Counted from the stretch's first letter, positions 10,817 to 30,000 are shown. The stretch: DNA of 32,000 nucleotides from Candidatus Lokiarchaeum ossiferum (GCA_025839675.1 CP104013.1:5130001-5162000); one strand, 5' to 3'. Notes: a model not told the origin generated them from the sequence alone. Numbers and translations are program-made.

Positions 10817-13800
10817 TTGACAACTGATAATCAAGATATAACCAAAATTGTAATTGGAATCGATTTAGGCTCCATAACGGCTAAAATTATTTTTATGGAT
10901 CAGAATAAGAAGTTAATAGAACATCATTATTTGCGGCATAAAGGTCGCCCTGGAGAAACTTTAGTAAGTGTTTTAGAAGATATGTTTTCACGATATCCGA
11001 AAGAAAAAGTATATTCTGTAGGAATAACGGGATCTGGAGGAAAACGGATTGCTCCCTTTATAAATGCAACTTTCATTAATGAAGTTATTTCTGAAACCTT
11101 TGCAGTTAGTCAGCTTGTCAAAGATGCACATTCGATTATCAATATTGGGGGACAAGATTCGAAATTAATTGATTTACATACTCGAAATAACGGCAAGGAT
11201 TTTATTATCGAAAATTTTGCTATGAATACTCTATGCGCAGCTGGAACAGGTGCATTTTTAGATCAACAAGCAACTCGATTAGGGGTCAATATTGAAGGTG
11301 AATTTGGGGAATTGGCATTAAAATCGAAAAATCCTCCTCGAATCGCAGGAAGATGCTCCGTTTTTGCAAAAAGTGATATGATTCATTTGCAACAAAAAGG
11401 TACTCCTCTCCATGATATCGTATCTGGCTTGTGTTACGCGATGGCGCGCAATTTTAAAGCTACAATCGGTAAAAATTCAGAAATTCAAAAAAATGTTGCT
11501 TTTATCGGAGGAGTCGCAAATAATAAAGGTATGGTAAAAGCCTTCCAAGATGTTTTAGAACTGAAGGAAGGAGAATTAATTATTCCGGAGCATAATTCTT
11601 TAATTGGAGCCATTGGAGCCGCTTACAATGTGTTTAATTCTCCATCTCAATTACCAGACCTTGAAACAATAAAACATGATCTTCAGAAAATCGTAGATGT
11701 GGAAGAAGGCTTAGCTCCATTGCATATTCAAGAACATCATCTTCACCCTGTTAAAAAAACAACCTATTTTTCCCCAGGAGATCAGAAAACAGATGTCTAT
11801 CTTGGTGTTGATGTTGGATCTATAAGCACCAAAGTTATTTTGATTGACACAGAAAATAATCTACTCGCTGAACGATATTTACGAACTGGTAGCCAACCAA
11901 TTGATGCCGTAAAAAGAGGTCTTAAAGAAATTGGTGAAGAAATGGCTGAACACGTAAATGTTCTTGGGGCTTGTACGACTGGATCTGCCCGGTACCTGAT
12001 TGGTGATTTTATTGGAGCTGATCTAGTGAAGGATGAAATAACGGCTCATGCTCGAGGTGCCAAACAAATTAATCCAAATGTGGATACAATATTCGAAATT
12101 GGTGGGCAAGATTCAAAATATATCAGCATTGAAAATGGGGCCATTGTGGATTTTGAAATGAATAAAGTGTGTGCCGCTGGGACAGGATCCTTTTTGGAAG
12201 AACAATCTGAACGATTAGCTATTGATATAAAAAATGATTTCAGTAAATATGCTCTTAAAGCCCAAGAGCCAAGTCTTTGTGGGGAACGGTGTACCGTTTT
12301 TATGGAATCTGATATTATTCATCATCAACAAAAAGGAGTTCCGAAAGAAGATATTGTCGCTGGGCTGGCTTATTCAATTGTTTATAATTATATTAATAAA
12401 GTTGTGGAAGGTAGAAAGATCGGGGAGACCATTTTTTTACAAGGTGGCGTAGCATTCAATAAAGGAGTGATTGCTGGATTTGAAACCGTACTGGGAAAAC
12501 CTGTCATCGTACCTCCTAATCATGAACATATGGGTTCCATTGGTGCAGCATTATTGGTAAAAGATATTCAGAATGGGCAGCCATCTAAATTCAAAGGATG
12601 GAATAGTGCTGAGCAAGAGTATAAAATTATGACGTTTGATTGTAAGCATTGTGCCAATAATTGTACAATAAATAAAGTGACAATTGGAAAAGATTCCGTA
12701 TTTTATTATGGAAGTCGGTGTGATCGATATGACAAGAAAAGTACCGATGAAATTGTGATTGAGGTTCCCGACTACTATGAAATTCGTGATATCCTTCTAA
12801 GAACATCTTACTCAAAACATATCTCCGCTGGAAAAGGGCGAGGAAGGATCGGTATTCCATTATCAATGACTATATACGAAGATTATCCTGTATGGAATGC
12901 CCTTTTTACTGAATTGGGATATGAAGTTATATTATCCGAACCTACTAATAAAAGTCATATTGAAAGGGGGTTGGAGTCGGTGGTAGAAGAAACTTGCTTC
13001 CCAATTAAAGTTCTTCATGGACATGTCCTCGAATTGGTGGATAAGAAAGTTGATTACATATTTCTTCCTTTTATGATGGATATGTGGAGTGATAATCCCC
13101 GTTTATCGGAAAGTCTCTTATGTTCATATGTTCAATCTTCACCAGATTTACTAAAATGTGCTTTTAATTGGGGTGATCTTGGCATTCGAGTTCTCTCTCC
13201 TGCAATTAAACCTTCAGTTGGTGATAAATTTGTCGTGAATGAACTATATAAAGTACTTGGTCCAGAATTACTCGTATCCAAATCTGATATTGCGCATGCC
13301 TTGCAAGTTGGAAAGCAAGCATTGAATCAATTTAGAGAAAATATGGTAAAAGAAGGGGAAAAAGCACTTTCTGAGTTAGGTGAAGATGAATTTGCTATTG
13401 CGATAATTAGTCGTCCCTATAATGGACCTGATAGAGGTATTAACTTAGATATTCCGAGAAAATTTAACAACTTAGGTGTTAAAGTTATTCCCATGGATTT
13501 CTTACCTCTTGCGACTGTCGATGTTCAAGAAGAATTACCCACAATGTTTTGGTGGTTTGGTCATCGAGTTTTAGGAGCTGCCAAAATCATAAGGGATCAT
13601 CCGAAACTATATCCCGTTTATATCAATAACTTTGCTTGTGGACCAGATTCTTTTGCCTTACAATATTTCTTATATATGATTGGAAACAAACCAAATCTTA
13701 TCTTAGAAATTGATGAACATAGTGCTGATGCAGGTGTTATGACTCGAGCCGAAGCCTTCTTAGATAGTATCAAGTACTTAAGAACTCAATCAACCGATTA

Positions 13801-15109
13801 TAAAACAAGAGATCTTATTATGGGCAAATCTGCCGATGTTGTTGGTAAAAACATATTAAAATCAGGGAAAAAGTTATATTTTCCACCAGTAAATCGTGAT
13901 CATGTTTTTACTTTGGCAGCAGCGTTTAATGCTCATGGATTAAATACTGAAGTACTTCCCGATACGGATGATGAAAGCTTAATTTGGGCACGAAAATACA
14001 CCAATAATAAGGAATGTTATCCCTACATAATTATTACCGGTGACATCGTGAAAATGACTCAACAACCAGGTTTTGATCCCGATAATTCTGCTTTCTTAAT
14101 GCCTGCAGGAAATGGAGTTTGTCGTCTCAATCATTATGATTCCATGCAGAGAATTGTGTTCAAAAAACTCGGTATCGAGCAAGTTGAATTATACGCGCCA
14201 ATTGCAGAAAAAGCAATCACTGACATGGGCAAAGTAAATTTACGATTACCAATCGACTGTTGGAATGCAGTCACTGCTGCTGATTGTTTATTCAAAGCTT
14301 ATCATCAAACTCGCCCTTATGAAGTTAAGGTTGGACAAACTGATGAAGTTTATGCTAAATTGAAAGAACTTCTTAATTCTACCGTTCTCAATAAAGGCAA
14401 TGTCATTAATACCATGAAAATTGCGCGGAAAGCCTTTGATGAAATTAAAGTGGACAAATCTATTGCAAAACCCAAAATTGGAATTATCGGAGAATTTTAT
14501 GTCCGGTGGCACCCCTATAGTAATAGTAATATTCTACAATTGATTGAAAAATTAGGGGGTGAAGTAGTATGCCCTTCGGTAGCAGAAAATATGCTTCACT
14601 TTAATCATACGATTCGGGATGATACAAAGCGTAAGAAGAAATATGTTGAATATCTCACTCAGAATCTTTCGGGACGTTGGCAGGTTTTTCAAGAACATCG
14701 AATTTATAAACCATTTGCCGATTTTCTAGAAATATATCCTGAACCATCAGTTCAAGAACTAGAAGATTTAGCACAACCCTATGCAAGTGAAATCAATGAG
14801 AATGAAATTGTTATTTCACTCGGAAAAGCCCGTTGGTTATTAGAAACTGGGAAAGTTCATGGTATTGTAAATCTCATTCCATTTACTTGTCTATTAGGTA
14901 CTCCAATTGCTGCGATGTTAAAACGTTTAAAAGAAGATTTTCCTAATGCTGCCATTACTACCTTCAAATTTGATGGAGCTGCAGATGTTAATATCCTCAC
15001 TCGTTTAGAAGCTTATATGCACCAAGCGCACCAATACGTGCGCACTGAAGATCAACCTCCTCAGAAATTTGATCCGAAAGGTAATCAAATGGATGTTGAA
15101 TGCAATTAA
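10817..15109 (+). CDS. fused double BcrAD/BadFG-type ATPase (acyl-CoA dehydratase activase-like) plus HgdB/YjiM-like (DUF2229-type) C-terminal region
   Basis: Two acetate/sugar-kinase-fold ATPase halves are present. Each has IGIDLGS / LGVDVGS, GGQDSK, MN-x2-CAAGTG-x-FL, and G-x-RC-x-VF-x-SD-x-IH-x-QQKG. The cluster-ligand cysteines are C140/C180 and C452/C492. A CxxCxxxC...C motif follows (FDCKHCANNCTINK...GSRCDRY). The remaining ~750 aa carry IGIPLSMTIYEDYPVWNALFTELGYEVILS, ETCFPIKVLHGH and IISRPYNGPDRGINLDIP, typical of the uncharacterised domain fused to CoA-enzyme activases. The start is TTG at 10817, because no in-frame ATG precedes the first phosphate-binding motif. Confidence 0.85.
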   Translation: MTTDNQDITKIVIGIDLGSITAKIIFMDQNKKLIEHHYLRHKGRPGETLVSVLEDMFSRYPKEKVYSVGITGSGGKRIAPFINATFINEVISETFAVSQLVKDAHSIINIGGQDSKLIDLHTRNNGKDFIIENFAMNTLCAAGTGAFLDQQATRLGVNIEGEFGELALKSKNPPRIAGRCSVFAKSDMIHLQQKGTPLHDIVSGLCYAMARNFKATIGKNSEIQKNVAFIGGVANNKGMVKAFQDVLELKEGELIIPEHNSLIGAIGAAYNVFNSPSQLPDLETIKHDLQKIVDVEEGLAPLHIQEHHLHPVKKTTYFSPGDQKTDVYLGVDVGSISTKVILIDTENNLLAERYLRTGSQPIDAVKRGLKEIGEEMAEHVNVLGACTTGSARYLIGDFIGADLVKDEITAHARGAKQINPNVDTIFEIGGQDSKYISIENGAIVDFEMNKVCAAGTGSFLEEQSERLAIDIKNDFSKYALKAQEPSLCGERCTVFMESDIIHHQQKGVPKEDIVAGLAYSIVYNYINKVVEGRKIGETIFLQGGVAFNKGVIAGFETVLGKPVIVPPNHEHMGSIGAALLVKDIQNGQPSKFKGWNSAEQEYKIMTFDCKHCANNCTINKVTIGKDSVFYYGSRCDRYDKKSTDEIVIEVPDYYEIRDILLRTSYSKHISAGKGRGRIGIPLSMTIYEDYPVWNALFTELGYEVILSEPTNKSHIERGLESVVEETCFPIKVLHGHVLELVDKKVDYIFLPFMMDMWSDNPRLSESLLCSYVQSSPDLLKCAFNWGDLGIRVLSPAIKPSVGDKFVVNELYKVLGPELLVSKSDIAHALQVGKQALNQFRENMVKEGEKALSELGEDEFAIAIISRPYNGPDRGINLDIPRKFNNLGVKVIPMDFLPLATVDVQEELPTMFWWFGHRVLGAAKIIRDHPKLYPVYINNFACGPDSFALQYFLYMIGNKPNLILEIDEHSADAGVMTRAEAFLDSIKYLRTQSTDYKTRDLIMGKSADVVGKNILKSGKKLYFPPVNRDHVFTLAAAFNAHGLNTEVLPDTDDESLIWARKYTNNKECYPYIIITGDIVKMTQQPGFDPDNSAFLMPAGNGVCRLNHYDSMQRIVFKKLGIEQVELYAPIAEKAITDMGKVNLRLPIDCWNAVTAADCLFKAYHQTRPYEVKVGQTDEVYAKLKELLNSTVLNKGNVINTMKIARKAFDEIKVDKSIAKPKIGIIGEFYVRWHPYSNSNILQLIEKLGGEVVCPSVAENMLHFNHTIRDDTKRKKKYVEYLTQNLSGRWQVFQEHRIYKPFADFLEIYPEPSVQELEDLAQPYASEINENEIVISLGKARWLLETGKVHGIVNLIPFTCLLGTPIAAMLKRLKEDFPNAAITTFKFDGAADVNILTRLEAYMHQAHQYVRTEDQPPQKFDPKGNQMDVECN

Positions 15110-15302: not shown

Positions 15303-15830
15303 TTACTTGCCTTCACTACGTGCCACAATTAATTTGGTCAATTCTGTGAATGATTCATCTACATTGGTTCCGTCTTTTGCACTAGTTTCAATGTAAATAG
15401 AATCTTCATCTTCTGCATATTCCCGGCATTCATCACGATCAATAACTTCACCAACTTCGGCAATTAGATCCACTTTGTTACCAATTAATACAAACGGAAT
15501 ATCTCCTGCAAATTGTCGTACTTCAGCACGCCAATTCTTAACGCTATCCCATGTTGCGGAACGTGATAAATCGAATACTAATAATACTCCCGAAGCACCT
15601 TTATAGAAGGTTGTTCGAATGAATGAGAACCTTTCTTGCCCTCCAATATCCCAAATGCTTAAAGTGGCTATTTGACCAGGAGCATATTCTACTTCTTTGG
15701 TCAAAATATCTACACCTACCGTTAGTTTGTAGTCTCTATCGAACTTAGATTTGATAAATCGATGGATCAATGATGTTTTTCCTACTGCTGCAGGTCCACA
15801 GAGCAATATCTTTAACTTATAGCTTGACAT
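15303..15830 (-). CDS. Rab/Ras-like small GTPase
   Basis: All five G motifs are present: G1 GPAAVGKTS, G2/switch I YKLTVGVD, G3 WDIGGQERF, G4 GNKVDL and G5 ETSAK. The protein is 175 aa and has no C-terminal Cys prenylation motif (it ends ARSEGK). Confidence 0.92.
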   Translation of the reverse strand: MSSYKLKILLCGPAAVGKTSLIHRFIKSKFDRDYKLTVGVDILTKEVEYAPGQIATLSIWDIGGQERFSFIRTTFYKGASGVLLVFDLSRSATWDSVKNWRAEVRQFAGDIPFVLIGNKVDLIAEVGEVIDRDECREYAEDEDSIYIETSAKDGTNVDESFTELTKLIVARSEGK

Positions 15831-16037: not shown

Positions 16038-16862
16038 CTATATCTTAATTTCCGTAGGATCAATTTTAAATTGTTTCAACTGATTTTGAACCCCTTTCAG
16101 AATTAATGCAAATTTCTTGCGACTCTCCGGGCGAATAGGTGCTTGGATATTCTCCGCATAATCTGCTATAAAGGTGGCTGCCAGCTTATCTGCTGTTTCA
16201 TTTAATATCTGTTCAAATTGATCGTTATATTTGTAGAGTATATTTCGAATTGAATAATCGAACATAATAAGAATACTTGCATCAAAAGCTTCTCCCCGTG
16301 CTTCAGGAGCTTGAACTTGAAAGAGAAAAATAACACTCATATATTTATCCGAAATAAAAGGATGAAAGTTCAACGTTCTTGCACTTGCTCCATCTATCTC
16401 ATTGAGTAATAAGAGTAATGAAGATGTGGAATATTTGAAAACTATATCTTCATCAATATTTTCCCACCAACCTATTGGTTCTGGTCCTGCTTGACGGGAA
16501 AGAGAAAAGATTGTGAATTTGGATAATGTTTGTAAATCTAATTCCAATGCAGGAAATTCTTGATCAAGTCTGAGTGCATAGCGTTCACAAAAGACATCAA
16601 ACATCGTTTGAACAACATTTTGGTGTGCTCGAGATAATAGAATCACTAATACATTTTCTGTAACTCGAAAGAAAATAACTGGTGATTTTAATAAGAGATC
16701 TCCGACTTTCAAATCCTTCATTAGCAATTTTTCTAAAACAGGGAAGATTTTGTCAACAGAATCTTTATCAATTGAAGTCTTTAGGATCGAACCATCTTTG
16801 AGAATAATCGCATATTTTGAAAAAGCATCTTCAATAAATTCGGAACATTCTTGAATTAACAA
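16038..16862 (-). CDS. hypothetical protein (274 aa), possible Roadblock/LC7-like N-terminal domain
   Basis: The ORF begins at TTG, and the first internal ATG is at codon 48, so the true start is uncertain. Residues ~5-95 (FSKYAIILKDGSILKTSIDKDSVDKIFPVLEKLL...VIFFRVTENVLVILLSRAH) resemble the Roadblock/LC7/MglB alpha-beta pattern by eye. The second half (SVIFLFQVQAPEARGEAFDASILIMFDY) is a further beta-rich unit of unknown type. Confidence 0.6.
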   Translation of the reverse strand: MLIQECSEFIEDAFSKYAIILKDGSILKTSIDKDSVDKIFPVLEKLLMKDLKVGDLLLKSPVIFFRVTENVLVILLSRAHQNVVQTMFDVFCERYALRLDQEFPALELDLQTLSKFTIFSLSRQAGPEPIGWWENIDEDIVFKYSTSSLLLLLNEIDGASARTLNFHPFISDKYMSVIFLFQVQAPEARGEAFDASILIMFDYSIRNILYKYNDQFEQILNETADKLAATFIADYAENIQAPIRPESRKKFALILKGVQNQLKQFKIDPTEIKI

Positions 16863-16971: not shown

Positions 16972-19900
16972 ATGCCCGTTGATGAAGTATTATTAAATTT
17001 GGCTTTCGAACTGACTGAGGAAGGAGAAGGTTATGCACACCAAGGTAACTATTCCGAAGCTATTTTAAAATTGCAACAAGCTTTAGATTTATTTCAAAAA
17101 GCCAATCTTCCGGATACAGAGAAGAGCAAAGTTATGAATATGATGGATATACGCCAGAAGGAATACGAGCGGTTAGAACGCGAAACTCGAGAATCTGGGA
17201 TAGAATCGCCTCCACAAACAACATCTATTGATAATTTAGTTGAAGAAGGGTTACAATTACTTAATGAAGCAGAATTTTTGTTAAATCAGGAAAATTATTC
17301 GGCAGCGATTGAAATATTTCATAAATCTGTTGAAAAACTAACTCGGGCGGGCTGGAGTTCTGAACAATTAAAAAGTATCCATGTTATCATAAACAATATC
17401 TCCAAGTTATTGGATCAAGAGAGTTCATCTCCTTCGTTATCAATGAATCAAGAATCTCCTGCTGAATCTTCGAATTTTTCTCCCACCTTCTTAAAAACTC
17501 AACAGTCCGATTTTATTGACAAAAAAATTAAAGTGACTCCCCAAAATAGTGGAGAAGAACAATATGTGCCCAGTTTTCTTAAACTTCAAAATGTTCAGAA
17601 AGATATCAGAACTCATCAATCCTCAGAAAGAGAGATCAATAAAAAGATAGAAGATGAATATTCTCCAAGTTTTCTTAAAACAAACCAACCCAATTATTCC
17701 TTACCATCAAAACCTATTGTAGATGCAGATGAAGATCAAAATTATATTCCGTCTTATTCTTTATCAAATCAAACGGATGTAATAGATGAACCCGGAAAAA
17801 AGACTGCTTTAGGGGCTTCGGTAATTGATGCTTCTCAACATAATGATGAAGATTATATCCCCAGTTTTGCGAAAAATATTGAAAAGGGGCAAGATTTTGA
17901 TTCTACTGAAATAGCTCACCTTCTTAAACAAGCCTCTGGAGAAGTTTTAAATTCCATTCCACCTTCTGAACATAAATCTTCTGTTTCGGTATCTGTCGAA
18001 GATCAAGATAATATGGCTTCTGAACTTCCTGAAAATGAAATTTTATCTGGAGGGGAAATTCCTTCTTTCAAAATTATTGATCTTAGAAATCAAGTAGAAA
18101 TGCGTTCTCAATCTCTTTTGGACCAATTTGAAGAAATTCTTGCAGATCATGAAAAAAAATTAGATGAAATTTTCATTTCAATAAATCAAATTCGCAAGTT
18201 GGAAGAACAAAATAAATTCAATCTGGCTATTGCCCAGTTAAATATCTGCATTGATAAGTTAAAGAAAATTCCTGGTTGGACAGATCAGGCTACCACATTA
18301 ATTGCATGGCTTCTAATTCTTCGTGAAAAAAATCGCTTAATTACTCAATCTAACAAAGTTCAAGATCTGGATTTAACTCGAATTAATGCTGAATTCACAA
18401 GAATTATGCAGGGAAGTTTGAAAAGTTCTTCTCAAGTGACTATTTCATTTGATTCGCTTTTAAATCAAGAACTATCTGGAGAACAGTTGTTTCAAACGAA
18501 GCTAAATCAACAAAAATTATTCCAAGATGCAATTTTTGAGTTATTTGACCAAGGGCATTTGCATATTCTTGGGGAGAAATACAAAAAAGCCATCCAAATT
18601 TGGAATGATGCTTTAATAAAAATTAACTCTTTACAATGGAAAGAGTTCGCTAATCAAAATCGAAAATTTCTTTCACATTTGGCTCGTTTAAGTGATCTTT
18701 ACGATCTCTCCTTATTAAGTGATTCACAGAAGGAAAAAACATCATCCTTCTCACGTGAAAACTATGAGGCAGAAAATAAAAAAAAAACACAAGCGCGACT
18801 CTTGCGACTTAATTTGCTCGAAAAACAATCTAATGAATATGATAAAGTTCAATCCGAGGCTTTTTCGCAAATTGATCAAGCTGAAATATGCTTGCAACGA
18901 AATGAATTTGAAGATGCAATACACTTGTATGAAGATGCAATTCATAAACTTGTTGAAATTGGATGGGAATCTCAAATTTCTGCTCTTAATACTCGTCTTA
19001 GCGTTATCCGGTCAAAAAAAGAACAATTCTTGACAAATTTGCAATCAAAATATTACGAAGAACTTAAACGAAAAGAATCAGAACGGCAAGTTCAAGATGA
19101 AATTCAACAAGCAATCACAAGAAAACAGGAAAAAATGCATACCGAAAAGATTCAAAGAGAAAATTTCAAAACAGAAAATCAAATTCTTTTGGAAATTCAA
19201 ACATCAATCAGATCCAAAATCGAAGAAGTTGGAAATTATTTAGATGTGCATCAATTTCAAGAAGCCTCTGAAACTTTGGATTCTGTATTAACCCTCATCA
19301 ATACTCACGGTCTTAATGATCAACGCGCCACTATTGAACAGTTGAAAAAAACAATTGTTCAAAAAGAACAAAATTATCGCTTAGAAATACAAAGTCAAAA
19401 ATTACATGAAAAACAAATGCTTCAAGAAAAACTCGAATTTGAGCGTTATTTAGAAGCCCAATCTAAAGAAATTGCGCTGCAACGAGATCAAAAACAAAAA
19501 AAACTCGCCGATTTTCATCAAAAAAAAATGGATCAAAGAAAATTAGAACAACAAGCATTTCAATTGATGGACGATGCTGAAAAGTTTCTGAACATTAATG
19601 AATTTACCCAAGCAATTGATTACTATAAGCAAGCAAATTTGATTTTTAAAAGTATTGGATGGAATATCGATGAAAAATCCCATCTTGAGCGAGTGTATCG
19701 AATTCAAGCAGAATATGTAAAAACTGTTGATCAAGCGGAAAAGGAACGTCTCCGGCAAGTGGAACAGAAACACCAAGTTGAATTGCAAGAAAAACAACGG
19801 AAACAAACAAAACAATCTGCCCTAAATGATATTCATGCTCTTTTAGGTAGTATTGGACAAAAATCTTCAACTCCAATCCCCGCTGATGAAAAAAAATTGA

Positions 19901-20205
19901 AGGGTGAAGATAAAATGGGTGAAGAAATGAAGCTTATTCTTTCAGCGACTTCAAAACAGATGAAAGAAACTCTAAAAGAACGAAATGCTGTCATTGATAG
20001 AACGGTACGGACTATTGGATCCGAAATCAATACTGCTGCAACTACCAGAGAAGAACTTCAGAGGATTGAAGAACAAAAGAAAGCCGCTCTTCTTGCCGCT
20101 GCTCAAAAAAAGAAAGAAGATGAAGAAAAACTTAAAGCAAAGCAAGAAATTGATGCTTTTAAGCGTATGATTCAAGCTGCAGTAAAAAAGAAAAACCAAA
20201 CATAA
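16972..20205 (+). CDS. large repeat protein (1077 aa): seven MIT-like helical modules, a disordered motif-repeat linker and Lys/Glu/Gln-rich coiled coils
   Basis: The ORF starts with ATG. A recurring module carries signatures such as NYSEAILKLQQALDLFQKA, NYSAAIEIFHKSVEKLTRAGW, FNLAIAQLNICIDKLKKIPGW, KYKKAIQIWNDALIKINSLQW, FEDAIHLYEDAIHKLVEIGW, FQEASETLDSVLTLINTHG and FTQAIDYYKQANLIFKSIGW. Residues 168-368 hold six [FY]-x-P-[ST]-[FY] motifs. The C-terminal third is charged heptad-like sequence. Confidence 0.8.
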   Translation: MPVDEVLLNLAFELTEEGEGYAHQGNYSEAILKLQQALDLFQKANLPDTEKSKVMNMMDIRQKEYERLERETRESGIESPPQTTSIDNLVEEGLQLLNEAEFLLNQENYSAAIEIFHKSVEKLTRAGWSSEQLKSIHVIINNISKLLDQESSSPSLSMNQESPAESSNFSPTFLKTQQSDFIDKKIKVTPQNSGEEQYVPSFLKLQNVQKDIRTHQSSEREINKKIEDEYSPSFLKTNQPNYSLPSKPIVDADEDQNYIPSYSLSNQTDVIDEPGKKTALGASVIDASQHNDEDYIPSFAKNIEKGQDFDSTEIAHLLKQASGEVLNSIPPSEHKSSVSVSVEDQDNMASELPENEILSGGEIPSFKIIDLRNQVEMRSQSLLDQFEEILADHEKKLDEIFISINQIRKLEEQNKFNLAIAQLNICIDKLKKIPGWTDQATTLIAWLLILREKNRLITQSNKVQDLDLTRINAEFTRIMQGSLKSSSQVTISFDSLLNQELSGEQLFQTKLNQQKLFQDAIFELFDQGHLHILGEKYKKAIQIWNDALIKINSLQWKEFANQNRKFLSHLARLSDLYDLSLLSDSQKEKTSSFSRENYEAENKKKTQARLLRLNLLEKQSNEYDKVQSEAFSQIDQAEICLQRNEFEDAIHLYEDAIHKLVEIGWESQISALNTRLSVIRSKKEQFLTNLQSKYYEELKRKESERQVQDEIQQAITRKQEKMHTEKIQRENFKTENQILLEIQTSIRSKIEEVGNYLDVHQFQEASETLDSVLTLINTHGLNDQRATIEQLKKTIVQKEQNYRLEIQSQKLHEKQMLQEKLEFERYLEAQSKEIALQRDQKQKKLADFHQKKMDQRKLEQQAFQLMDDAEKFLNINEFTQAIDYYKQANLIFKSIGWNIDEKSHLERVYRIQAEYVKTVDQAEKERLRQVEQKHQVELQEKQRKQTKQSALNDIHALLGSIGQKSSTPIPADEKKLKGEDKMGEEMKLILSATSKQMKETLKERNAVIDRTVRTIGSEINTAATTREELQRIEEQKKAALLAAAQKKKEDEEKLKAKQEIDAFKRMIQAAVKKKNQT

Positions 20206-20260: not shown

Positions 20261-21229
20261 ATGATTTCTGACATGATTCCTTCCTCGCTTCACCGATCTA
20301 CCCTCCAAATCACCATTGTTACTGCACAAGATGATATCGCATCTAAGACAATATTTAACGCCTTATTGGCCTCTTATCCTTTTGAAATTGTGTCGAACCA
20401 TCCTTTAAGGCATCATAATTCTATCCAATCTCTACATTGTTGCAAATTATCTGAAGGTTCAAGTTCAGTTCATTTTCTTCTTATAAATGTTCTCGAAAAA
20501 ATGACTAATTTAGACGAAATTATTTCCCCTACCGAAATGCCCGGGGATCTTCTTATTTTTGCCAGTCGCCATCAATCCAAAAGTGGTCGACCTTCACTTA
20601 TGTGTCATACTACTGGGAATTTGAATGAAGATATTGCTGGTGGGGGACAACCATTTCGAATATCTATAGGGACTGGGATTGTTCTCCATTATTTCTTTAC
20701 TCTTTTATCTCAGTATTCTACGGAAAGATCTTTCGGTGTACCAGTCCATCATGAAGTAGATCACCATGGTCCTACAGAATATTTACAGCCTCTCGTTTAT
20801 ATCGAACAAGGAAGTTCGGAAGATGCTTGGAAAGATCCAATTGGTGCGAAAATAATTGCAGATGTCATTATGAAAACAGGGATTATTCTAACAACTTCCC
20901 ACTATCATGGAAATCAATGGGATAAAAAAGATTTGAAGATTTGTGTGGGTTTTGGAGGGGGCCATTATATGCCTAGCTTTACTCCTTTAATATCTCTTGG
21001 ATATTCTTTTGTACACACTGTACCTAAATATAAAATATTGGATTTAACTTCTACCATGATTGAACAAATCCAACAAAGAACTTTGGAACCAATAGATTTT
21101 TGGGTTCTTGATTGGAAGGGGTTAAAATCTGCAGATAAACAGCATTTAATTCCTTTACTAGAACAGACAGGAATTCCAATTAAAAAAACTAAGGAACTTC
21201 GCAAATTATTTCCAACATTACCTAAGTAG
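20261..21229 (+). CDS. dtdA: D-aminoacyl-tRNA deacylase, archaeal type (DtdA family)
   Basis: The motifs match my recollection of the archaeal tRNA_deacylase family: LLIFASRHQSKSGRPSLMCHTTGN, EVDHHGPTE, YIEQGSSEDAW, GFGGGHYMPSF and VHTVPKY. The conserved core starts near residue 15 (LQITIV), so Met5 is an alternative start. Confidence 0.8.
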   Translation: MISDMIPSSLHRSTLQITIVTAQDDIASKTIFNALLASYPFEIVSNHPLRHHNSIQSLHCCKLSEGSSSVHFLLINVLEKMTNLDEIISPTEMPGDLLIFASRHQSKSGRPSLMCHTTGNLNEDIAGGGQPFRISIGTGIVLHYFFTLLSQYSTERSFGVPVHHEVDHHGPTEYLQPLVYIEQGSSEDAWKDPIGAKIIADVIMKTGIILTTSHYHGNQWDKKDLKICVGFGGGHYMPSFTPLISLGYSFVHTVPKYKILDLTSTMIEQIQQRTLEPIDFWVLDWKGLKSADKQHLIPLLEQTGIPIKKTKELRKLFPTLPK

Positions 21230-22484: not shown

Positions 22485-23594
22485 TTAAAATGTTGACCAA
22501 AAGGGTTTCAAATGATCTTGTAATTCAGGAATAAGTTGATTCATTGTAAATTCTATTCCTTTTTGCGATTCATCGTAATTATCATCTTCTACAAATATTA
22601 CGTTATCCTCCGCCAAGGCATTAATGGTATTTGCAATAGAATTTCCAATGGCGACTAAATTATACCCTCCTTCCAGAGTGCATTGGATACGATTTTTTGC
22701 AAATTTAGAAGACATTTTTGCGAGTTCCTGAATAATAAAAGAATAAGTTTGATCCATTAATCCCATTGCAGTCAGAGTATCTGCGTGATGAGAATCATAA
22801 CCGGCGGAAACTAAGATAAATTCGGGTTTGAATTCCTCCATCATCGGATTAATAATCTGATTGAAAAGATTTTGGATGCATTTCTGTCCTGAATAGGGTA
22901 ATACTGTTAGATTTACTGTTTTACCTCTTTGCTTGCCTTCACCAATTTCATCAACAAAACATGTACCAGGATATAAGGTTGCTGGGTGTTGATGGATCGA
23001 AAAGAAAAGTATTTCACCCTCAGCATTCCGATTATTGAGTATTTCTTCGGATCCATTTCCTGCATGGGCATCAAAATCTATAATTGCAACCTTTTTTAGC
23101 CCCCATTTGTGAATAAGGTATTCAGCAGCCAAAATGATATTATTGAAAAAACAAAATCCTCGTGCTTCTGTATTGTTGGCATGATGTCCAGGAGGACGGC
23201 ATAAAACAAAGGATCGATCAATTTTCTGACTCATAATATCGTCTATCGCTTGAAAATTGCCTCCGATTGCATAACGTGCAGCTGTAAAAGAAGATCCCGA
23301 AATAATTGTATCTCCATATGTCCCATCGGTAAATAGCAATTCATCCCATTTCTGCGCTCGTGTTGATAATTGTTGAATTTTTTCAATTAATTGGGGGGAA
23401 TGGCACCATTGAATTTCAGTTAGTTCTGCTAATCTCGGTATTATTGTGTGAAAATGTGATTTGTGTCCATCCCCAAAAAGATCCAGTTCTTCTAACTGGT
23501 TTTTCGTATGAATAACGCGCTCTGCTCGTTCGGGGTGATAACCCGTGTCATGTTTTTCATAAAATTCATGATAAGCCACACCAACATTTTTCAT
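22485..23594 (-). CDS. histone deacetylase-family protein, class II / acetylpolyamine amidohydrolase-like
   Basis: The motifs are GYHPERAERV, CRPPGHHANNTEARGFCFFNN, IIDFDAHAGNGSEEI, SIHQ and LEGGYN. It is distinct in class from the 7024-8220 paralog. Confidence 0.88.
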   Translation of the reverse strand: MKNVGVAYHEFYEKHDTGYHPERAERVIHTKNQLEELDLFGDGHKSHFHTIIPRLAELTEIQWCHSPQLIEKIQQLSTRAQKWDELLFTDGTYGDTIISGSSFTAARYAIGGNFQAIDDIMSQKIDRSFVLCRPPGHHANNTEARGFCFFNNIILAAEYLIHKWGLKKVAIIDFDAHAGNGSEEILNNRNAEGEILFFSIHQHPATLYPGTCFVDEIGEGKQRGKTVNLTVLPYSGQKCIQNLFNQIINPMMEEFKPEFILVSAGYDSHHADTLTAMGLMDQTYSFIIQELAKMSSKFAKNRIQCTLEGGYNLVAIGNSIANTINALAEDNVIFVEDDNYDESQKGIEFTMNQLIPELQDHLKPFWSTF

Positions 23595-23760: not shown

Positions 23761-24312
23761 ATGACACAAATTTTCAAGTTAAAATTATGCATTATTGGGG
23801 AGCATGCATGCGGAAAAACATCATTAATTAAAAATTTTGTAGAAGGAGCGTATTCCAAAGATTATCGTCCAACAATAGGCTCCAATCTCTTTATTAAAAA
23901 GTTAGCTTTTCGGGCTAATGATGGGGAAGATTATCAATTTACTATTACTGCATGGGATATTGCTGGCCAGGAGCGTTGGCAAAGTATGCGACATACATAT
24001 TATCGTGGGGCCCAAGGTGTGTTTATTGTGGGTGATCTAACCCGAAAAAATACTTTCCATCAAATCGATAAATTTTGGATAGATGATTTTCGCAAGAATA
24101 TGGATACTCCAATACCAATCATCTTACTCGCTAACAAAAAAGATCTAGACGGAGAAATTTCTGAAGAACATGTTCGGGAAATGGCAGAACGACAAAAGAT
24201 CGATAAAGTTTTGTTTACTTCGGCTAAAACAGGCTATCATGTTAATGAGGCCTTTATAGCGATGATAAAAAGCTGTATTGGAATCGACTCCATTATTCCT
24301 ATTCCGTTGTAA
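23761..24312 (+). CDS. Rab/Ras-like small GTPase (second copy, divergent)
   Basis: The G motifs are G1 GEHACGKTS, switch I YRPTIGSN, G3 WDIAGQERW, G4 ANKKDL and G5 TSAK. The protein is 183 aa and has no CAAX or CC tail (it ends SIIPIPL). Confidence 0.9.
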   Translation: MTQIFKLKLCIIGEHACGKTSLIKNFVEGAYSKDYRPTIGSNLFIKKLAFRANDGEDYQFTITAWDIAGQERWQSMRHTYYRGAQGVFIVGDLTRKNTFHQIDKFWIDDFRKNMDTPIPIILLANKKDLDGEISEEHVREMAERQKIDKVLFTSAKTGYHVNEAFIAMIKSCIGIDSIIPIPL

Positions 24313-27047: not shown

Positions 27048-30000
27048 TTAGAATTTTCCTTGCTTTGGCTTAGTGGATAATCTATAATGATCATTCTTCG
27101 GACAATAAAGTGTTCCATCTTTATGCCATTCTTCTAATGCACTTTTTATAAACTGTTCTGTGACACCTTCCACCGTTGCTAAGGGTTCATAGATATCCTC
27201 CCAAGTGAGATCCTCAGAGGGATCTTCCAACTGTAATTCCCGAATTTTTTCCAAAATTAAGTTTAATTTGTTCCGTTTATTACTGGATGTTCCTGTGAGC
27301 ATTACATCCATATCTACTTTTCCTGTTTCTTTATCATATCCAATCTCATGCAGCGATCGATCCAATAACGATATCATTGCTTCTGTATCTTCTAATAACA
27401 CCACGTCACGTAATGCCATTTTTGCATATGCTTCGCTCATTCTTACCATTCCATCTAGCGTTCGCGCTACGATGGAAACAGCGGTGGGATTATCGGGATT
27501 TGAGGTTCGCATTTTAACATAATAATCTTGAATTTTCCGTGCCGATTCCCGTGTTAATTTTGGATGACAATTATTTTTACAATACTGAATATATTTTTTT
27601 AAAAGATCCATCGGAATGAAATCATCTTCGGTTGGAATATTTTTCTTCTTCTCTTCCTCATCGACAAATGTTTCATCATGCCCCTCCATGTGATTTCGAA
27701 GGATATATTGAGCGATGCGGTCATCACTATTTTTTTCCGGTACATCTCTCACAATGAATATAAGATCGAACCGAGATAATATCGGAGGACTCAAATTGAT
27801 ATTGGCTGCGGGTGTTTCAAAATCATTCCAACGGCCTTGTTTAGGATTTGCAGCTGCAATGATAGCCGTTTGTGCTTGAAGTGTTGCCACAATACCTGCC
27901 TTGGCTATGCTAATCGTCTGTTGTTCCATCGCCTCATGGATTGCCGAGCGATCTTGTTTACGCATTTTATCAAATTCGTCGATGCAGTTATGCATAATGA
28001 TATTGTTTCCAACAAAATTATTTGTTCCTTCCATGGTAAAATCGTACACATATTCGCTTCTGATTTCTTCAATATCGATAATTTTATCCCATAGAATATC
28101 ACTTTCAATAAAATTGTGTAAAAATTTTTCCTTAACAACTTGATTAATTCTTTTCAGATGATATTTTGAAGGAGCTACTTGAGGTTTGCAATAATTCCAC
28201 ACATATCTATAGATATCTGACCCCAATTTTCCCTTGTTTTTTAATTTTAAACGTTCAAAATATTCTTGAAAATTAGGTAGGATATCAATTCGATCCTTGA
28301 TTTGATTAATTTTCAATTTTTTAAATTTTGCTTTTTTTACAGGATGCAACGTTCCTATCTGATTATAAAAGGCAATACAATCGAGTGTCCCCGTAATTTC
28401 ACAGTGCCAATCTGTAGATTTTTTAACTACTGTGGAAATGATTCCAAATCTCAATAGTAAATTTTGAAAAAGAACTGCATTTTCATGCATACCAGTAGAA
28501 AAAATAACGCTATTTGGATTTGATCTTAAACAACCATCCCCGTCAAAAACACCTCTCAAAAATAAGGAAATGGTTTGTTTTGAATAGGTGAATATTTTTT
28601 TTGATAAGGCAAATTTAGTTGATTTATTTCCTTTAGGTACTCCAAATTCGATTAAATCTTGAGCAAATTTTTTAGTTGAATTGTAAATTTGGTAATTGTT
28701 TTTGGTGGATTTATATTGCTTATTACTTTCTCTCTGTTGAGGTTTCCTTACGTATGTATTATGAGATATATTCAAACGATCTAGGGTTGATTTAAATATT
28801 TCCACCATATCTGTATTAGAATTATAAAATTCTCCTCTTCCTTTTGTATCAGATAATGCGATGTGCCCATCGGAAGCAATTAATCCGCAGATATAGGCGA
28901 AATCGGGTTGGAAATGATCTGAGTGATTAAATGAGATCAATTTTGGAACTGCTATATAATCTCCTGTCTTTATATTGTGTGTTTCTGTCCAAAGAAACTT
29001 TGAGTTATTGCTTGTGAAAATTTCATTATCTTCTGTTAGGTTTAAAGATCTTCCGGTCGCGGTCGTTAATTTATATATTTTTTTCTGATTGCGAATTTTA
29101 AAAGCTCTTTTGATTTTGAAAGGCTCAATTTTCAGATTTTCTTGATTTAATCCAAAAACTTTGAAATCAGGAAAAATTTCCCCTTCCTCATCACCAAATG
29201 AGTGAAATAATTCTTTGAAAGATATTCTCTTTCCATCTTCCCTTATAAACTTGGTATCTTCTGTAGTACAGGCAATGCCCCCGGATGCTAAAACCAGTGC
29301 ACCTGCTTCTAATTGCATGCCCGTATTGTCGCTTTCTTTGACTACAGCTGCTGTCAAACCTGCAGCGGAAGAGCCTTTTCCTGATGTATAAACCGATCTT
29401 TGTGCGATTTTGGCACAATTTTGTAATATCTGCGATTTTCCGGTTCCTGGGTCTCCCATAAAGAGAACGTGGATATCGCCCCGTAATTTACTCCCATCTT
29501 TTTTAAGTTTTTGATTTCCTGAAAATAGTGACAGAGCTGCCGCCATTTTAAGTTGATCATGACCTAAAATTCCCCGGGCGATGGATCGGGCAATTTTATT
29601 TTGAATCATGGGTTCTAATGACAAAGCATGGATTTCATCAATATCCTCTTGCGTGAGATCCTGTTCCTCATCTGTTTCTTTAATTCCTTCAATGTGATTG
29701 ACCATAAGCTGGGTCATAAAGACTGTGGTGAGACGTCCTCGACGATCTTCTTTAGGGATTGATTGTAATACGCCCATAATTTTAACACGTTCTCCTGGAC
29801 GGGCAGAATCGACTAAATGGTTATGGAGAACGGCTTGTAACGTTTGGGGAATATCCCCCGATCGGAGATCTTCTGGGGCTTCTTGGATCGTGATGCTTTG
29901 GTGATTAATGAATTCTGATTGGCGTGTATCGACCTTAAATTCCTTAGTATTCTTGCAAGCCGGATTAGTACATTCTCTTGGTGGGGTTAATTTTGATGTC

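What the first reader, a model, noticed from the sequence alone, without database searches (positions are those of the whole stretch)
16981..19737. Seven MIT-like three-helix modules in one 1077-aa protein: a possible multivalent ESCRT-III-binding scaffold
The protein contains seven copies of a helical module of about 60-65 aa. The approximate nucleotide spans are 16981-17181, 17227-17415, 18148-18336, 18514-18696, 18844-19041, 19189-19380 and 19543-19737.

All copies share the core [N/K/E]-[YF]-x-x-A-I-x-x-[YLF]-x-x-A-x(6-7)-G-W. Module 1 (LLNLAFELTEEGEGYAHQGNYSEAILKLQQALDLFQKANLPDTEKSKVMNMMDIRQKEYERLERE) aligns by eye with the Vps4/spastin MIT hallmark. That hallmark is helix 1, then ...NYEEAL-x-LY-x-x-A-x-x-x-F..., then a third helix ending ...EY-x-x-RAE-x-L.

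Modules 3-7 recur every ~110-120 aa and are separated by K/E/Q-rich coiled-coil spacers. Characterised MIT proteins carry one or two MIT domains. An array of seven would be an unusual architecture and would predict avid binding of polymerised ESCRT-III-type filaments.

The gene lies divergently next to a putative Roadblock-like gene and a Rab-like GTPase.
Basis: partly seen in the sequence, partly recalled or inferred. Interest (0 to 1): 0.75.

Follow-up and report, generated by a model that had tools for sequence, protein, structure and literature searches.

The report
Periodic MIT-like module array protein
This Lokiarchaeum gene encodes a long helical rod carrying seven small MIT-like three-helix knobs, one member of an undescribed Lokiarchaeota family with up to 25 such knobs, but nothing yet shows that the knobs bind ESCRT-III.

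Summary
ORF 16972-20205 (+) is the 1077-aa hypothetical protein NEF87_004398 of Ca. Lokiarchaeum ossiferum. It has seven ~65-aa helix-turn-helix-loop-helix modules at the stated coordinates, and modules 3-7 recur every ~116 aa on helical spacers.

An AlphaFold model of module 5 (pLDDT 96.6) is a three-helix bundle. Its best PDB matches are nearly all MIT domains (VPS4A/B, MITD1, yeast Vps4). NRBF2 MIT fits best (TM 0.85). Pfam MIT passes its whole-protein cut-off (43.4 bits against 30), but no single module does. Every match covers only helices 1-2, the part MIT shares with TPR.

An exhaustive search shows that seven is not special. At least 201 clusters share the ~115-aa unit, with up to 25 modules in 2927 aa. 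Every member that carries a name is from Lokiarchaeota. No paper in the searchable library describes the family.

The divergent neighbour is a Roadblock+longin protein, whose MK-D1 orthologue has solved structures. A Rab-like GTPase follows it.

No ESCRT gene lies near any of the ten loci inspected (nine distinct gene places), and NRBF2 MIT does not bind ESCRT-III. So "MIT-like array" is supported and "ESCRT-III scaffold" remains untested. The protein is most likely a multivalent docking rod whose ligand is unknown.

The parts
16972..20205 (+). ORF of 1077 aa (NEF87_004398), the array protein
   Evidence: Eight orthologues at about 35% identity align over nearly the full length.
16981..17193 (+). 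Module 1 (aa 4-74), first of an N-terminal tandem pair
   Evidence: Helices 5-23, 27-43 and 48-74. Alone it scores Pfam TPR_2 23.3 bits and MIT 21.1 bits. It is nearly invariant among orthologues. A profile alignment to VPS4B MIT spans all three helices but is weak, E 0.17.
17227..17424 (+). Module 2 (aa 86-151)
   Evidence: Helices 86-105, 109-125 and 130-151. MIT 19.2 bits. The best PDB sequence hit of the family profile, calpain-7 tandem MIT (E 0.0035), aligns here and at module 5.
17425..18063 (+). Disordered linker (aa 152-364) with six copies of a short motif, [YF/E]-x-P-[ST]-[FY]-[LAKS]-K-like, at aa 168-176, 198-206, 230-238, 258-266, 295-303 and 362-370
   Evidence: pLDDT about 30. 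Motif copies are listed. Y, P, F, L and K of the motif are invariant in orthologues. The motif is confined to the orthologue group plus a few close relatives and is absent from the giant paralogues.
18157..18345 (+). Module 3 (aa 396-458), divergent in sequence; its helix 1 is the end of a long helix, 365-412
   Evidence: Helices 365-412, 416-431 and 437-458. Found by the pooled HMM. It gives no Pfam hit alone. The stretch W436-L447 is invariant in orthologues.
18370..18474 (+). Highly conserved segment between modules 3 and 4 (aa 467-501, ...SSSQVTISFDSLLNQEL...)
   Evidence: S485-S487, V489-F493, L496 and N498-L501 are invariant. It holds short helices and low-confidence stretches. Function unknown.
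18511..18711 (+). Module 4 (aa 514-580)
   Evidence: Helices 503-533, 537-554 and 557-589. The orthologue profile of m4 finds m2 (15.9 bits) and m7 (12.6 bits).
18841..19047 (+). Module 5 (aa 624-692), the best MIT match
   Evidence: MIT 23.8 bits over profile positions 2-40. AF2 model: pLDDT 96.6, pTM 0.84, three helices. Foldseek top hits are MIT domains.
19195..19395 (+). Module 6 (aa 742-808), divergent (has HGL in place of GW)
   Evidence: Helices 729-758, 762-778 and 782-874. Found by the pooled HMM. No Pfam hit alone.
19537..19743 (+). Module 7 (aa 856-924)
   Evidence: Its helix 1 is the end of the continuous helix 782-874, followed by helices 878-895 and 901-961. MIT 16.0 bits. m7<->m5 score 36.9 and 18.1 bits.
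19909..20202 (+). C-terminal ~97-aa helix ending in a basic amphipathic tail (aa 1055-1077, ...EIDAFKRMIQAAVKKKNQT)
   Evidence: Helix 980-1076. The tail motif Phi-x-x-M-[IL]-[KR]-[ED]-A..KKK lies in the last 30 aa of 39 of 139 family proteins, against 0.0067 expected per 30-aa window.
16038..16862 (-). Divergent neighbour of 274 aa: Roadblock (aa 1-108) + longin (aa 108-268) protein. Context only; a functional link is inferred.
   Evidence: PDB chains 8yqk/8yql 'Roadblock domain' (E 4e-58) and 8yqg 'Longin domain' (E 2.5e-97) match the orthologue profile; their printed sequences agree with the MK-D1 orthologue aligned, to which the window protein is 49% identical. The gene is adjacent and divergent in the window, L001/L010, L003, L009 and L011.
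15303..15830 (-). Rab-like small GTPase of 175 aa, downstream of the Roadblock-longin gene on the same strand. Context only.
   Evidence: Pfam Ras 158 bits. Best PDB matches are Thorarchaeota Rab, Ypt7, Rab22 and Rab11. The orthologue is 87-88% identical and lies near the array gene at L001/L010, L003, L009 and L011. L013 also has a 175-aa Ras-family GTPase gene 2.8 kb upstream, judged from its Pfam listing only.

Best explanation
**What it is.** The gene encodes a cytoplasmic, mostly alpha-helical rod that acts as a multivalent docking scaffold. It belongs to a family seen so far only in Lokiarchaeota. The family's building block is a ~115-aa unit: one small three-helix bundle of the MIT/TPR-clan type, followed by a helical spacer of about 50 residues. 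Helix 3 of one bundle runs on through the spacer into helix 1 of the next bundle.

**Layout of this member.**
- A tandem pair of bundles at the N-terminus.
- A ~210-aa disordered linker that carries six copies of a conserved Y-x-P-S-F-L-K-type peptide motif.
- Five periodic units.
- A ~100-aa terminal helix ending in a conserved basic amphipathic tail.

**Shown here:** the modules, their period, their fold class, the family and its taxonomic range, and the gene neighbourhood.

**Inferred:** each bundle is a docking site for a short helical or proline-containing peptide, as in MIT and TPR domains. The basic tail would anchor or couple the rod, and the array would give avidity for a repetitive or clustered partner. 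The partner is not identified. ESCRT-III tails, the neighbouring Rab-like GTPase system and the family's own tail are the candidates.
For: - **Seven in-register modules, better than shuffles**, with a spacing of 116 aa.
- **Fold.** Module 5 is a confident three-helix bundle (pLDDT 96.6, pTM 0.84). In the full-length model all seven modules show helix, 3-aa turn, helix, 4-6-aa loop, helix. Long continuous helices link modules, for example 782-874.
- **MIT signal.** The Foldseek top 15 are all MIT domains, with NRBF2 MIT at TM 0.85 and rmsd 1.9 A. Pfam MIT scores 43.4 bits against a cut-off of 30. MIT is the commonest hit of single modules, 29 of 57. hhalign against VPS4B MIT gives 82.7% probability over 43 columns.
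- **Family.** 201 clusters at E<=1e-3, and proteins with up to 25 modules at the same ~115-aa spacing. Every member with a name is from Lokiarchaeota/Promethearchaeota.
- **No enzymatic or other Pfam domain is fused** in the ten large members scanned, which fits a scaffold.
- **Conserved peptide motifs.** Linker motifs are conserved in orthologues. A C-terminal tail motif is strongly enriched at the very C-terminus across the family.
Against: - No binding partner is identified by any test here, and there is no experimental evidence.
- The full-length model has pTM 0.28, so only local structure can be used and the extended-rod picture is an inference.
- Coiled-coil dimer versus single helix in the spacers is unresolved.
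- Each module alone is below the Pfam MIT cut-off, and matches cover only profile positions 2-46.
- The same motif matches consensus TPR equally well.
- Foldseek E-values are all >=0.04, which is expected for a 69-aa domain but is not proof.
- Modules 3 and 6 are recognised mainly by layout.
Confidence: 0.6

Rival explanations
1. The modules are true MIT domains that bind the MIM tails of polymerised ESCRT-IIIA/B. The protein would be an avid, filament-specific ESCRT-III adaptor, or a ruler along the filament.
For: MIT is the best fold and profile match. Calpain-7 tandem MIT and VPS4B MIT are the best PDB sequence hits of the full-length profile. Lokiarchaeota and MK-D1 encode ESCRT-III with MIM1- and MIM2-like tails plus Vps4 (PMC7240154, PMC8970359, PMC7619361). 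Two giant paralogues sit beside E1-like (ThiF) and E2 (UQ_con) genes, and ubiquitin machinery is coupled to ESCRT in Asgard archaea (PMC10936438).
Against: No ESCRT-III, Vps4 or ESCRT-I/II gene lies within about 10 kb at the window or at L001-L004, L006, L009, L011, L012, L013. The sequence match is limited to helices 1-2, whereas MIM grooves involve helix 3. The closest structure is NRBF2 MIT, which together with the VPS9D1 and ULK1 MITs binds no ESCRT-III (PMC9477494). All named family members are Lokiarchaeota, whereas ESCRT-III is found in most Asgard lineages (though absent from some, PMC10936438). The conserved GW loop is not a feature of Vps4-type MITs.
Confidence: 0.2
2. A golgin-like long tether or effector of the neighbouring Rab-like GTPase. 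The rod would be anchored through its basic C-terminal helix, and the GTP-bound GTPase, regulated by the adjacent Roadblock-longin protein, would dock on the helical modules.
For: The Roadblock-longin gene lies divergently next to the array gene and is followed by the Rab-like GTPase at the window and four other loci in Lokiarchaeum and Promethearchaeum: L001/L010, L003, L009 and L011. L013 has a 175-aa Ras-family GTPase gene 2.8 kb away. A 69%-identical GTPase lies 4.4 kb from the giant paralogue P0011. Roadblock and longin platforms regulate small GTPases (PMC10933270). From general knowledge, eukaryotic long coiled-coil tethers carry several Rab sites. Basic C-terminal tails are family-wide.
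Against: The synteny is seen only among fairly close relatives and is interrupted by unrelated insertions, such as an LRR protein and a 645-aa ORF in MK-D1. L002 has neither gene within 10 kb upstream. The D-aminoacyl-tRNA deacylase and cupin genes are at least as well conserved as neighbours and are surely unrelated. Small GTPases are very abundant in these genomes, so proximity to paralogues is weak evidence. MK-D1 GTPases are reported as generally not in operons with their regulators (PMC10933270).
Confidence: 0.2
3. A self-assembling structural protein, either a cytoskeletal or cortical mesh or a condensate. The family's own C-terminal MIM-like tail, or in this orthologue group the linker motifs, would dock into the MIT-like modules of other copies. 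Vps4 might remodel the assembly.
For: The tail motif is conserved at the extreme C-terminus of many family members, and its position and amphipathic character recall MIM1 (by-eye comparison with the IST1 and CHMP1B MIM1 sequences, from my own knowledge). There are six linker motifs against seven modules. Module number is greatly expanded (up to 25) with strict periodicity, as in structural repeat proteins.
Against: The tail does not fit the MIM1 consensus: Arg is at +2 rather than +3 from the first hydrophobic residue, and Ala replaces the last Leu. Other subfamilies have different, simply arginine/lysine-rich tails, which points to electrostatic anchoring rather than a specific groove ligand. 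The giant paralogues lack the linker motifs altogether. No structural test of self-binding was possible.
Confidence: 0.1
4. An ordinary TPR-repeat protein, as UniRef and NCBI name some members. On this view the MIT resemblance is only the generic similarity between MIT and 1.5 TPR units, and nothing is special.
For: TPR_2 scores 34.8 bits on module 1. The module profile scores highest on consensus-TPR designs and on Tom70/71. hhalign against CTPR3 gives 86% probability. Foldseek also lists kinesin light chain TPRs with TM 0.72-0.78. From my own knowledge, MIT belongs to the Pfam TPR clan.
Against: There is no run of adjacent 34-aa repeats. Each module holds one TPR-like hairpin plus a third helix, and modules are separated by ~50-aa helices or a 210-aa disordered linker. 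The TPR matches cover only 20-23 residues. The full-length model superposes on TPR solenoids with TM 0.06-0.09 relative to the query. The 115-aa super-repeat with up to 25 copies is not a known TPR architecture.
Confidence: 0.08

Closest known systems
MIT domains of Vps4/VPS4A/B, MITD1 and NRBF2 (Pfam PF04212, PF17169)
   Same: A stand-alone antiparallel three-helix bundle of about 70 aa. Shares the 'N-Y-x-E-A-I-x-x-Y-x-x-A' helix 1-2 signature. These are the best PDB fold matches and the commonest Pfam hit of single modules.
   Different: Each module is below the Pfam cut-off on its own. Helix 3 shows no significant sequence match. A G-W loop after helix 2 is typical here but not in Vps4 MIT. 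Helices 1 and 3 continue into long connecting helices. There are seven to 25 copies per protein instead of one or two. Ligand binding is untested.
Tandem-MIT proteins (calpain-7, LIP5/Vta1, ULK3, ULK1/2)
   Same: More than one MIT-type bundle in one chain. The N-terminal pair here (modules 1-2, 11-aa linker) resembles that layout, and calpain-7 is the top PDB sequence hit.
   Different: The known proteins stop at two MIT domains and attach them to an enzyme or adaptor domain (PMC9477494). This protein has no other recognisable domain and five further periodic modules.
NRBF2/Atg38 (MIT domain followed by a coiled coil)
   Same: The best structural superposition, TM 0.85 and rmsd 1.9 A. Also an MIT bundle whose chain continues into a long helix.
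   Different: NRBF2 has a single MIT, a dimerising coiled coil and a role in the PI3K complex. It does not bind ESCRT-III (PMC9477494). No homology beyond the fold was detected.
Tetratricopeptide repeat (TPR) proteins
   Same: Same clan-level helix-hairpin motif. TPR_2, TPR_1 and TPR_11 profiles hit several modules.
   Different: No contiguous 34-aa repeats and no solenoid. One hairpin plus a capping helix per module, spaced 115 aa apart.
Spectrin-type repeat rods and golgin-type coiled-coil tethers (analogy only)
   Same: A roughly 100-aa three-helix super-repeat in which the last helix of one unit continues into the first helix of the next (spectrin). A long helical rod with several docking sites, a terminal anchor and a Rab nearby (golgins).
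   Different: No sequence or profile similarity was found. Helix 2 is only about 17 residues, so the unit is a small knob on a long helix and not a spectrin bundle of three ~30-residue helices. Rab binding and membrane anchoring are untested.

Membership tests
MIT domain (PF04212) | Isolated antiparallel three-helix bundle of about 70-80 aa | tested here: met
   Module 5 AF2 model: pLDDT 96.6, helices 2-19, 23-39 and 46-68. All seven modules show the same helix pattern in the full-length model.
MIT domain (PF04212) | Closest solved structures are MIT domains | tested here: met
MIT domain (PF04212) | Profile match above the curated Pfam threshold | tested here: inconclusive
   The whole protein scores 43.4 bits against a cut-off of 30, but this is a sum of weak stretches. 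Single modules score 16-24 bits or nothing. 29 of 57 modules reach E<=0.01.
MIT domain (PF04212) | Sequence similarity across all three helices, including helix 3, which forms both MIM grooves | tested here: not met
Pfam matches cover profile positions 2-46 of 66. hhalign against VPS4B covers 43 columns, helices 1-2 only. Only module 1 aligns through helix 3, at E 0.17.
MIT domain (PF04212) | Binds MIM peptides of ESCRT-III in the H2/H3 or H1/H3 groove | not testable with these tools
   No complex prediction or binding assay was available. Some true MIT domains (NRBF2, VPS9D1, ULK1) do not bind ESCRT-III (PMC9477494).
ESCRT-associated gene (genomic context) | Conserved neighbourhood with ESCRT-III, Vps4, ESCRT-I/II or ubiquitin genes | tested here: not met
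   None at the window or at the seven orthologue loci L001/L010, L002, L003, L008, L009, L011 and L013. The giant paralogues P0011 and P0015 lie next to ThiF (E1-like) and UQ_con (E2) genes but not ESCRT genes.
Canonical TPR repeat protein | Three or more adjacent 34-aa helix-turn-helix repeats forming a superhelix | tested here: not met
   One hairpin per module. Modules are 116 aa apart or separated by a disordered linker. The full-length model against TPR solenoids gives TM 0.06-0.09 relative to the query.
Canonical TPR repeat protein | TPR consensus residues in the A/B hairpin | tested here: met
   TPR_2 scores 34.8 bits on aa 13-41. The module profile matches CTPR '[20 protein letters not shown]' at 13-19 bits per repeat. 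hhalign gives 86% over 20 columns.
Spectrin repeat | A ~106-aa unit of three long (~30-aa) helices, with matching profiles | tested here: not met
   Helix 2 is about 17 aa. No spectrin family appears in the Pfam scans.
Roadblock-longin GTPase regulator (the neighbour gene, 16038-16862) | Roadblock fold plus longin fold | tested here: met
   The profile of five orthologues matches PDB 8yqk/8yql 'Roadblock domain' (aa 2-108, E 4e-58) and 8yqg 'Longin domain' (aa 108-268, E 2.5e-97). Their printed sequences agree with the MK-D1 orthologue aligned, to which the window protein is 49% identical. Pfam alone found nothing.

The most novel reading that the evidence does not exclude
Lokiarchaeota may have built their own rod or mesh system from the MIT-MIM principle. 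Arrays of 7-25 MIT-like knobs on rigid helical spacers would dock C-terminal MIM-like tails. Those tails could belong to ESCRT-IIIA/B filaments, to other copies of the family, or to both. The result would be a multivalent assembly, possibly remodelled by Vps4, that reads or organises ESCRT-III polymers. In this orthologue group it would be wired to a Rab-like GTPase through the Roadblock-longin neighbour. That would place the expansion of the MIT-MIM binding code, and a link between small-GTPase signalling and ESCRT, before eukaryogenesis.
Probability: 0.12. Interest if true: 0.85.

Novelty: new variant of a known kind. Interest (0 to 1): 0.58.

Why it matters
MIT domains are the readers of the ESCRT-III 'tail code' in eukaryotes. 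In characterised proteins they occur singly or in pairs, and in archaea they are known chiefly as the N-terminal domain of Vps4/CdvC.

This work points to a family, seen so far only in Lokiarchaeota, in which an MIT-like bundle is the repeat unit of very long periodic rods of 7 to 25 copies. I found no description of the family in the searchable literature. It is present in both cultured Lokiarchaeia, L. ossiferum and P. syntrophicum MK-D1, so it can be studied by biochemistry and cryo-ET.

[quoted passage not shown] If they do not, it is still a new repeat architecture and a possible cytoskeletal or scaffold component in cells known for elaborate protrusions.

Tried and rejected
- **Foldseek with the full-length model** returned only TPR proteins, with query-normalised TM 0.06-0.09 and rmsd 22-48 A. 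This is uninformative.
- **NCBIfam** has no model for the protein or for the 274-aa neighbour.
- **Pfam on ten large paralogues** found no fused functional domain. Weak HEPN, SNAP and DUF4904 hits were judged to be noise.
- **The genome-contig scan** with the full-length alignment used two N-terminal peptide patterns and returned only four Promethearchaeum loci. It says nothing about paralogues or other Asgard phyla.
- **Heptad and salt-bridge counting** on the spacers could not separate a coiled coil from a single alpha-helix.
- **Literature searches** found nothing for MIT arrays in Asgard archaea, for the locus tags, or for the PDB ids 8YQG/8YQK/8YQL.
- **The C-terminal tail as a canonical MIM1** was considered and rejected: the Arg register is off by one and Ala replaces the last Leu.
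- **The linker motif as a PTAP, YPxL or MIM2 late-domain-type motif** was considered and rejected: there is only one proline and the spacing is wrong.
- **Nested ORFs** 18719-19033 (+) and 19543-19815 (-) inside the gene are treated as spurious.
Full report
**Identity and observation.** The window is from Candidatus Lokiarchaeum ossiferum. The ORF at 16972-20205 (+) is 1077 aa and 100% identical to hypothetical protein NEF87_004398. Eight orthologues at about 35% identity, including Promethearchaeum syntrophicum MK-D1 DSAG12_01966, align over almost the full length.

- A module HMM built from all orthologue modules finds exactly seven in every full-length orthologue.
- Profiles built from the orthologues of one module, with the window protein left out, find other modules in register well above 1000 shuffles. 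Examples are m7->m5 at 36.9 bits, m5->m2 at 23.5 and m2->m7 at 19.9, against shuffle maxima of 5-12.
- Modules 3 and 6 are only marginal by this test.
- The stated consensus is overstated. The first half is present in 5 of 7 modules and 'GW' in 4 of 7.
- The median spacing is 116 aa.

**Structure.** I predicted module 5 with an alignment of 57 module sequences. The model is very confident (pLDDT 96.6, pTM 0.84) and is a three-helix bundle with helices 2-19, 23-39 and 46-68.

The full-length model is reliable only locally (pLDDT 63.6, pTM 0.28). It shows the same pattern at all seven positions: helix, 3-residue turn, helix, 4-6-residue loop, helix. Residues 150-364 are disordered. Long connecting helices link the modules; for example, helix 782-874 runs from helix 3 of module 6 into helix 1 of module 7. 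A terminal helix spans 980-1076.

The spacers are about 40% charged and 23-26% hydrophobic. Simple heptad and salt-bridge counts cannot separate a coiled coil from a single helix.

**MIT or TPR?**
- Pfam MIT passes its whole-protein cut-off (43.4 bits against 30, E 3.7e-11). This is a sum of weak stretches that all map to profile positions 2-46, which are helices 1-2. Single modules score 16-24 bits or nothing.
- Scanned singly, 29 of 57 modules hit MIT at E<=0.01, 14 hit TPR_2 and one hits NRBF2_MIT.
- Against PDB sequences, the full-length profile ranks calpain-7 (tandem MIT) and VPS4B MIT first. The pooled module profile scores highest on consensus-TPR designs, but only over the ~20-residue 'YxxAIxxYxxA' stretch, whereas MIT hits span up to 50 positions.
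- hhalign gives 82.7% over 43 columns against VPS4B MIT and 86% over 20 columns against CTPR3.
- Foldseek of the module-5 model against the PDB puts MIT domains in all of the first 15 places. NRBF2 MIT superposes best (TM 0.85, rmsd 1.9 A). Kinesin light chain TPRs follow at TM 0.72-0.78. No E-value is below 0.04, as expected for 69 residues.

My reading is that these are MIT-like three-helix units of the TPR clan. They stand alone and do not form a solenoid, so the fold and layout criteria for MIT are met. The helix-3 sequence criterion is not met. Ligand binding could not be tested.

**The family.** An exhaustive HMMER search with the full-length alignment finds 201 clusters at E<=1e-3 and 45 at E<=1e-30.
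- Many members are giants built from the same unit: P0011 has 2927 aa and 25 modules, and P0014, P0015, P0018 and P0024 have 20-22 modules. In most members the spacing is about 110-120 aa.
- Their whole-protein Pfam MIT scores rise with copy number, to 119.5 bits for P0011. The best-scoring stretches printed still cover helices 1-2 only.
- No other domain is fused in the ten large members scanned.
- Every member that carries a name is from Lokiarchaeota/Promethearchaeota, including a 2547-aa MK-D1 paralogue.

So seven is not exceptional within the family. What is unusual is the family itself.

Two further conserved features emerged.
- In the orthologue group, and in lower copy number in a few close relatives, the disordered linker carries four to six copies of a [YF]-x-P-[ST]-[FY]-[LMA]-K motif.
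- Across much of the family, the extreme C-terminus carries a basic amphipathic motif, Phi-x-x-M-[IL]-[KR]-[ED]-A..KKK. It is found in the last 30 aa of 39 of 139 proteins, against 0.0067 expected per window. Other subfamilies have different Arg/Lys-rich tails.

**Context.**
- The divergent neighbour at 16038-16862 (-) has no Pfam hit. Its orthologue profile matches PDB chains 8yqk/8yql ('Roadblock domain') and 8yqg ('Longin domain') at E 4e-58 and 2.5e-97. The printed chain sequences agree with the MK-D1 orthologue aligned, to which the window protein is 49% identical.
- Downstream of it on the same strand is a Rab-like GTPase. Its orthologues are 87-88% identical.
- The arrangement Roadblock-longin gene divergent from the array gene, with the GTPase nearby, recurs at L001/L010, L003, L009 and L011.
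- L013 has a 175-aa Ras-family GTPase gene 2.8 kb away but lacks the Roadblock-longin gene. L002 has neither within 10 kb. Unrelated insertions occur in MK-D1.
- A D-aminoacyl-tRNA deacylase follows the array gene at every orthologue locus whose downstream side could be read, usually with a cupin after it. So part of this synteny is simply inherited gene order.
- The giant paralogues P0011 and P0015 share a downstream block of S8 peptidase, ThiF (E1-like), HAD and UQ_con (E2).
- No ESCRT-III, Vps4 or ESCRT-I/II gene appears in the window or at any of the loci read (and the locus tables).

**Mechanism.**
- Shown: a periodic array of small three-helix bundles on helical spacers, a disordered motif-bearing linker, and a basic C-terminal helix. 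There is no signal peptide, transmembrane segment or enzymatic domain.
- Inferred: the bundles are peptide or helix docking sites, as in MIT and TPR domains. The array gives avidity for a clustered or polymeric partner, and the tail anchors or couples the rod.

I commit to 'multivalent docking rod of a Lokiarchaeota-specific family' at 0.6. I rank the possible partners as follows.
- ESCRT-III tails: 0.2. Fold class and the presence of MIM-bearing ESCRT-III in these organisms (PMC7240154, PMC8970359, PMC7619361) speak for this. Context, the helix-3 result and the NRBF2 precedent (PMC9477494) speak against it.
- The Rab-like GTPase system next door, as a golgin-like tether: 0.2.
- Self-assembly through the family's own tail or linker motifs: 0.1.
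- 'Just a TPR protein': unlikely, 0.08. There is no contiguous 34-aa repeat run, and the full-length model does not superpose on solenoids.

**Novelty and verdict.** Characterised MIT proteins have one or two MIT domains (PMC9477494). Searches of the held literature found no description of MIT-like arrays in Asgard archaea and nothing on these locus tags.

- I rate the finding a new variant of a known kind.
- Interest is moderate to high, because both cultured Lokiarchaeia encode it and the decisive binding and imaging experiments are straightforward.

Noticed in passing
window 17464-18081 (aa 165-370 of the array protein): Six copies of a short linear motif in a disordered linker: NFSPTFLKT, YVPSFLKLQ, YSPSFLKTN, YIPSYSLSN, YIPSFAKNI and EIPSFKIID. 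Y, P, F, L and K are invariant in the orthologues. The motif does not match PTAP, YPxL, MIM2 or other motifs I know. Its partner is unknown.
   Followed up: partly
window 18370-18474 (aa 467-501): This is among the most conserved stretches of the whole protein. It lies between modules 3 and 4 (...SSSQVTISFDSLLNQEL...; S485-S487, V489-F493, L496 and N498-L501 are invariant) and is partly low-confidence in the model. It looks like a serine/acidic-flanked F-x-x-L peptide (LIR-like by eye). Not tested.
   Followed up: no
window 20134-20202 (aa 1055-1077) and the C-termini of P0010-P0139: A family-wide conserved extreme C-terminal motif, for example EIDAFKRMIQAAVKKK and EVDEIARMIKEAAKKKK. It is a basic amphipathic helix that resembles, but does not fit, the MIM1 consensus of ESCRT-III tails. 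Other subfamilies end in RRAERRKK- or EELIKKLKxGxL-type tails.
   Followed up: partly
window 16038-16862 (-): Pfam and NCBIfam find nothing in this 274-aa protein. PDB chains 8yqk/8yql (Roadblock) and 8yqg (Longin) match its orthologue profile very strongly, and their printed sequences agree with the MK-D1 orthologue. I found no publication for these entries in the held library.
   Followed up: yes
window 15303-15830 (-) against L001, L003, L009 and L011: The Rab-like GTPase is 87-88% identical between Lokiarchaeum and Promethearchaeum. Its neighbours are only 35-50% identical, so this one small GTPase is under unusually strong constraint.
   Followed up: partly
L004 18809-23187 and L012 12195-16647: The two giant paralogues (25 and 20 modules), which belong to different 50%-identity clusters, share the same downstream block: S8 peptidase, ThiF (E1-like), HAD hydrolase and UQ_con (E2). 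This may link the giant arrays to the ubiquitin-like system.
   Followed up: partly
window 20261-21229 (+) and the loci L001, L002, L003, L008, L009, L013: A D-aminoacyl-tRNA deacylase gene (Pfam tRNA_deacylase) follows the array gene at every orthologue locus whose downstream side was readable. A small cupin gene is listed after it at four of them (L001, L002, L003, L013); the window has an unrelated 217-aa ORF there instead. This is probably inherited gene order and not a functional link.
   Followed up: partly
window 27048-30557 (-): An MCM helicase gene interrupted by an intein with a LAGLIDADG homing-endonuclease domain (Pfam MCM, Intein_splicing, LAGLIDADG_3). A Hel308-type helicase is next to it at 24346-27015 (-).
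   Followed up: no
window 23761-24312 (+); 7024-8220 (-) and 22485-23594 (-): A second Ras/Rab-like GTPase (183 aa) and two histone-deacetylase-family genes lie in the same 32 kb.
   Followed up: no
window 10817-15109 (+); 1736-4492 (-); 123-1634 (-): A 1430-aa protein has two BcrAD/BadFG activase ATPase domains plus DUF2229. Two large ORFs (918 and 503 aa) have no Pfam or NCBIfam hit at all.
   Followed up: no
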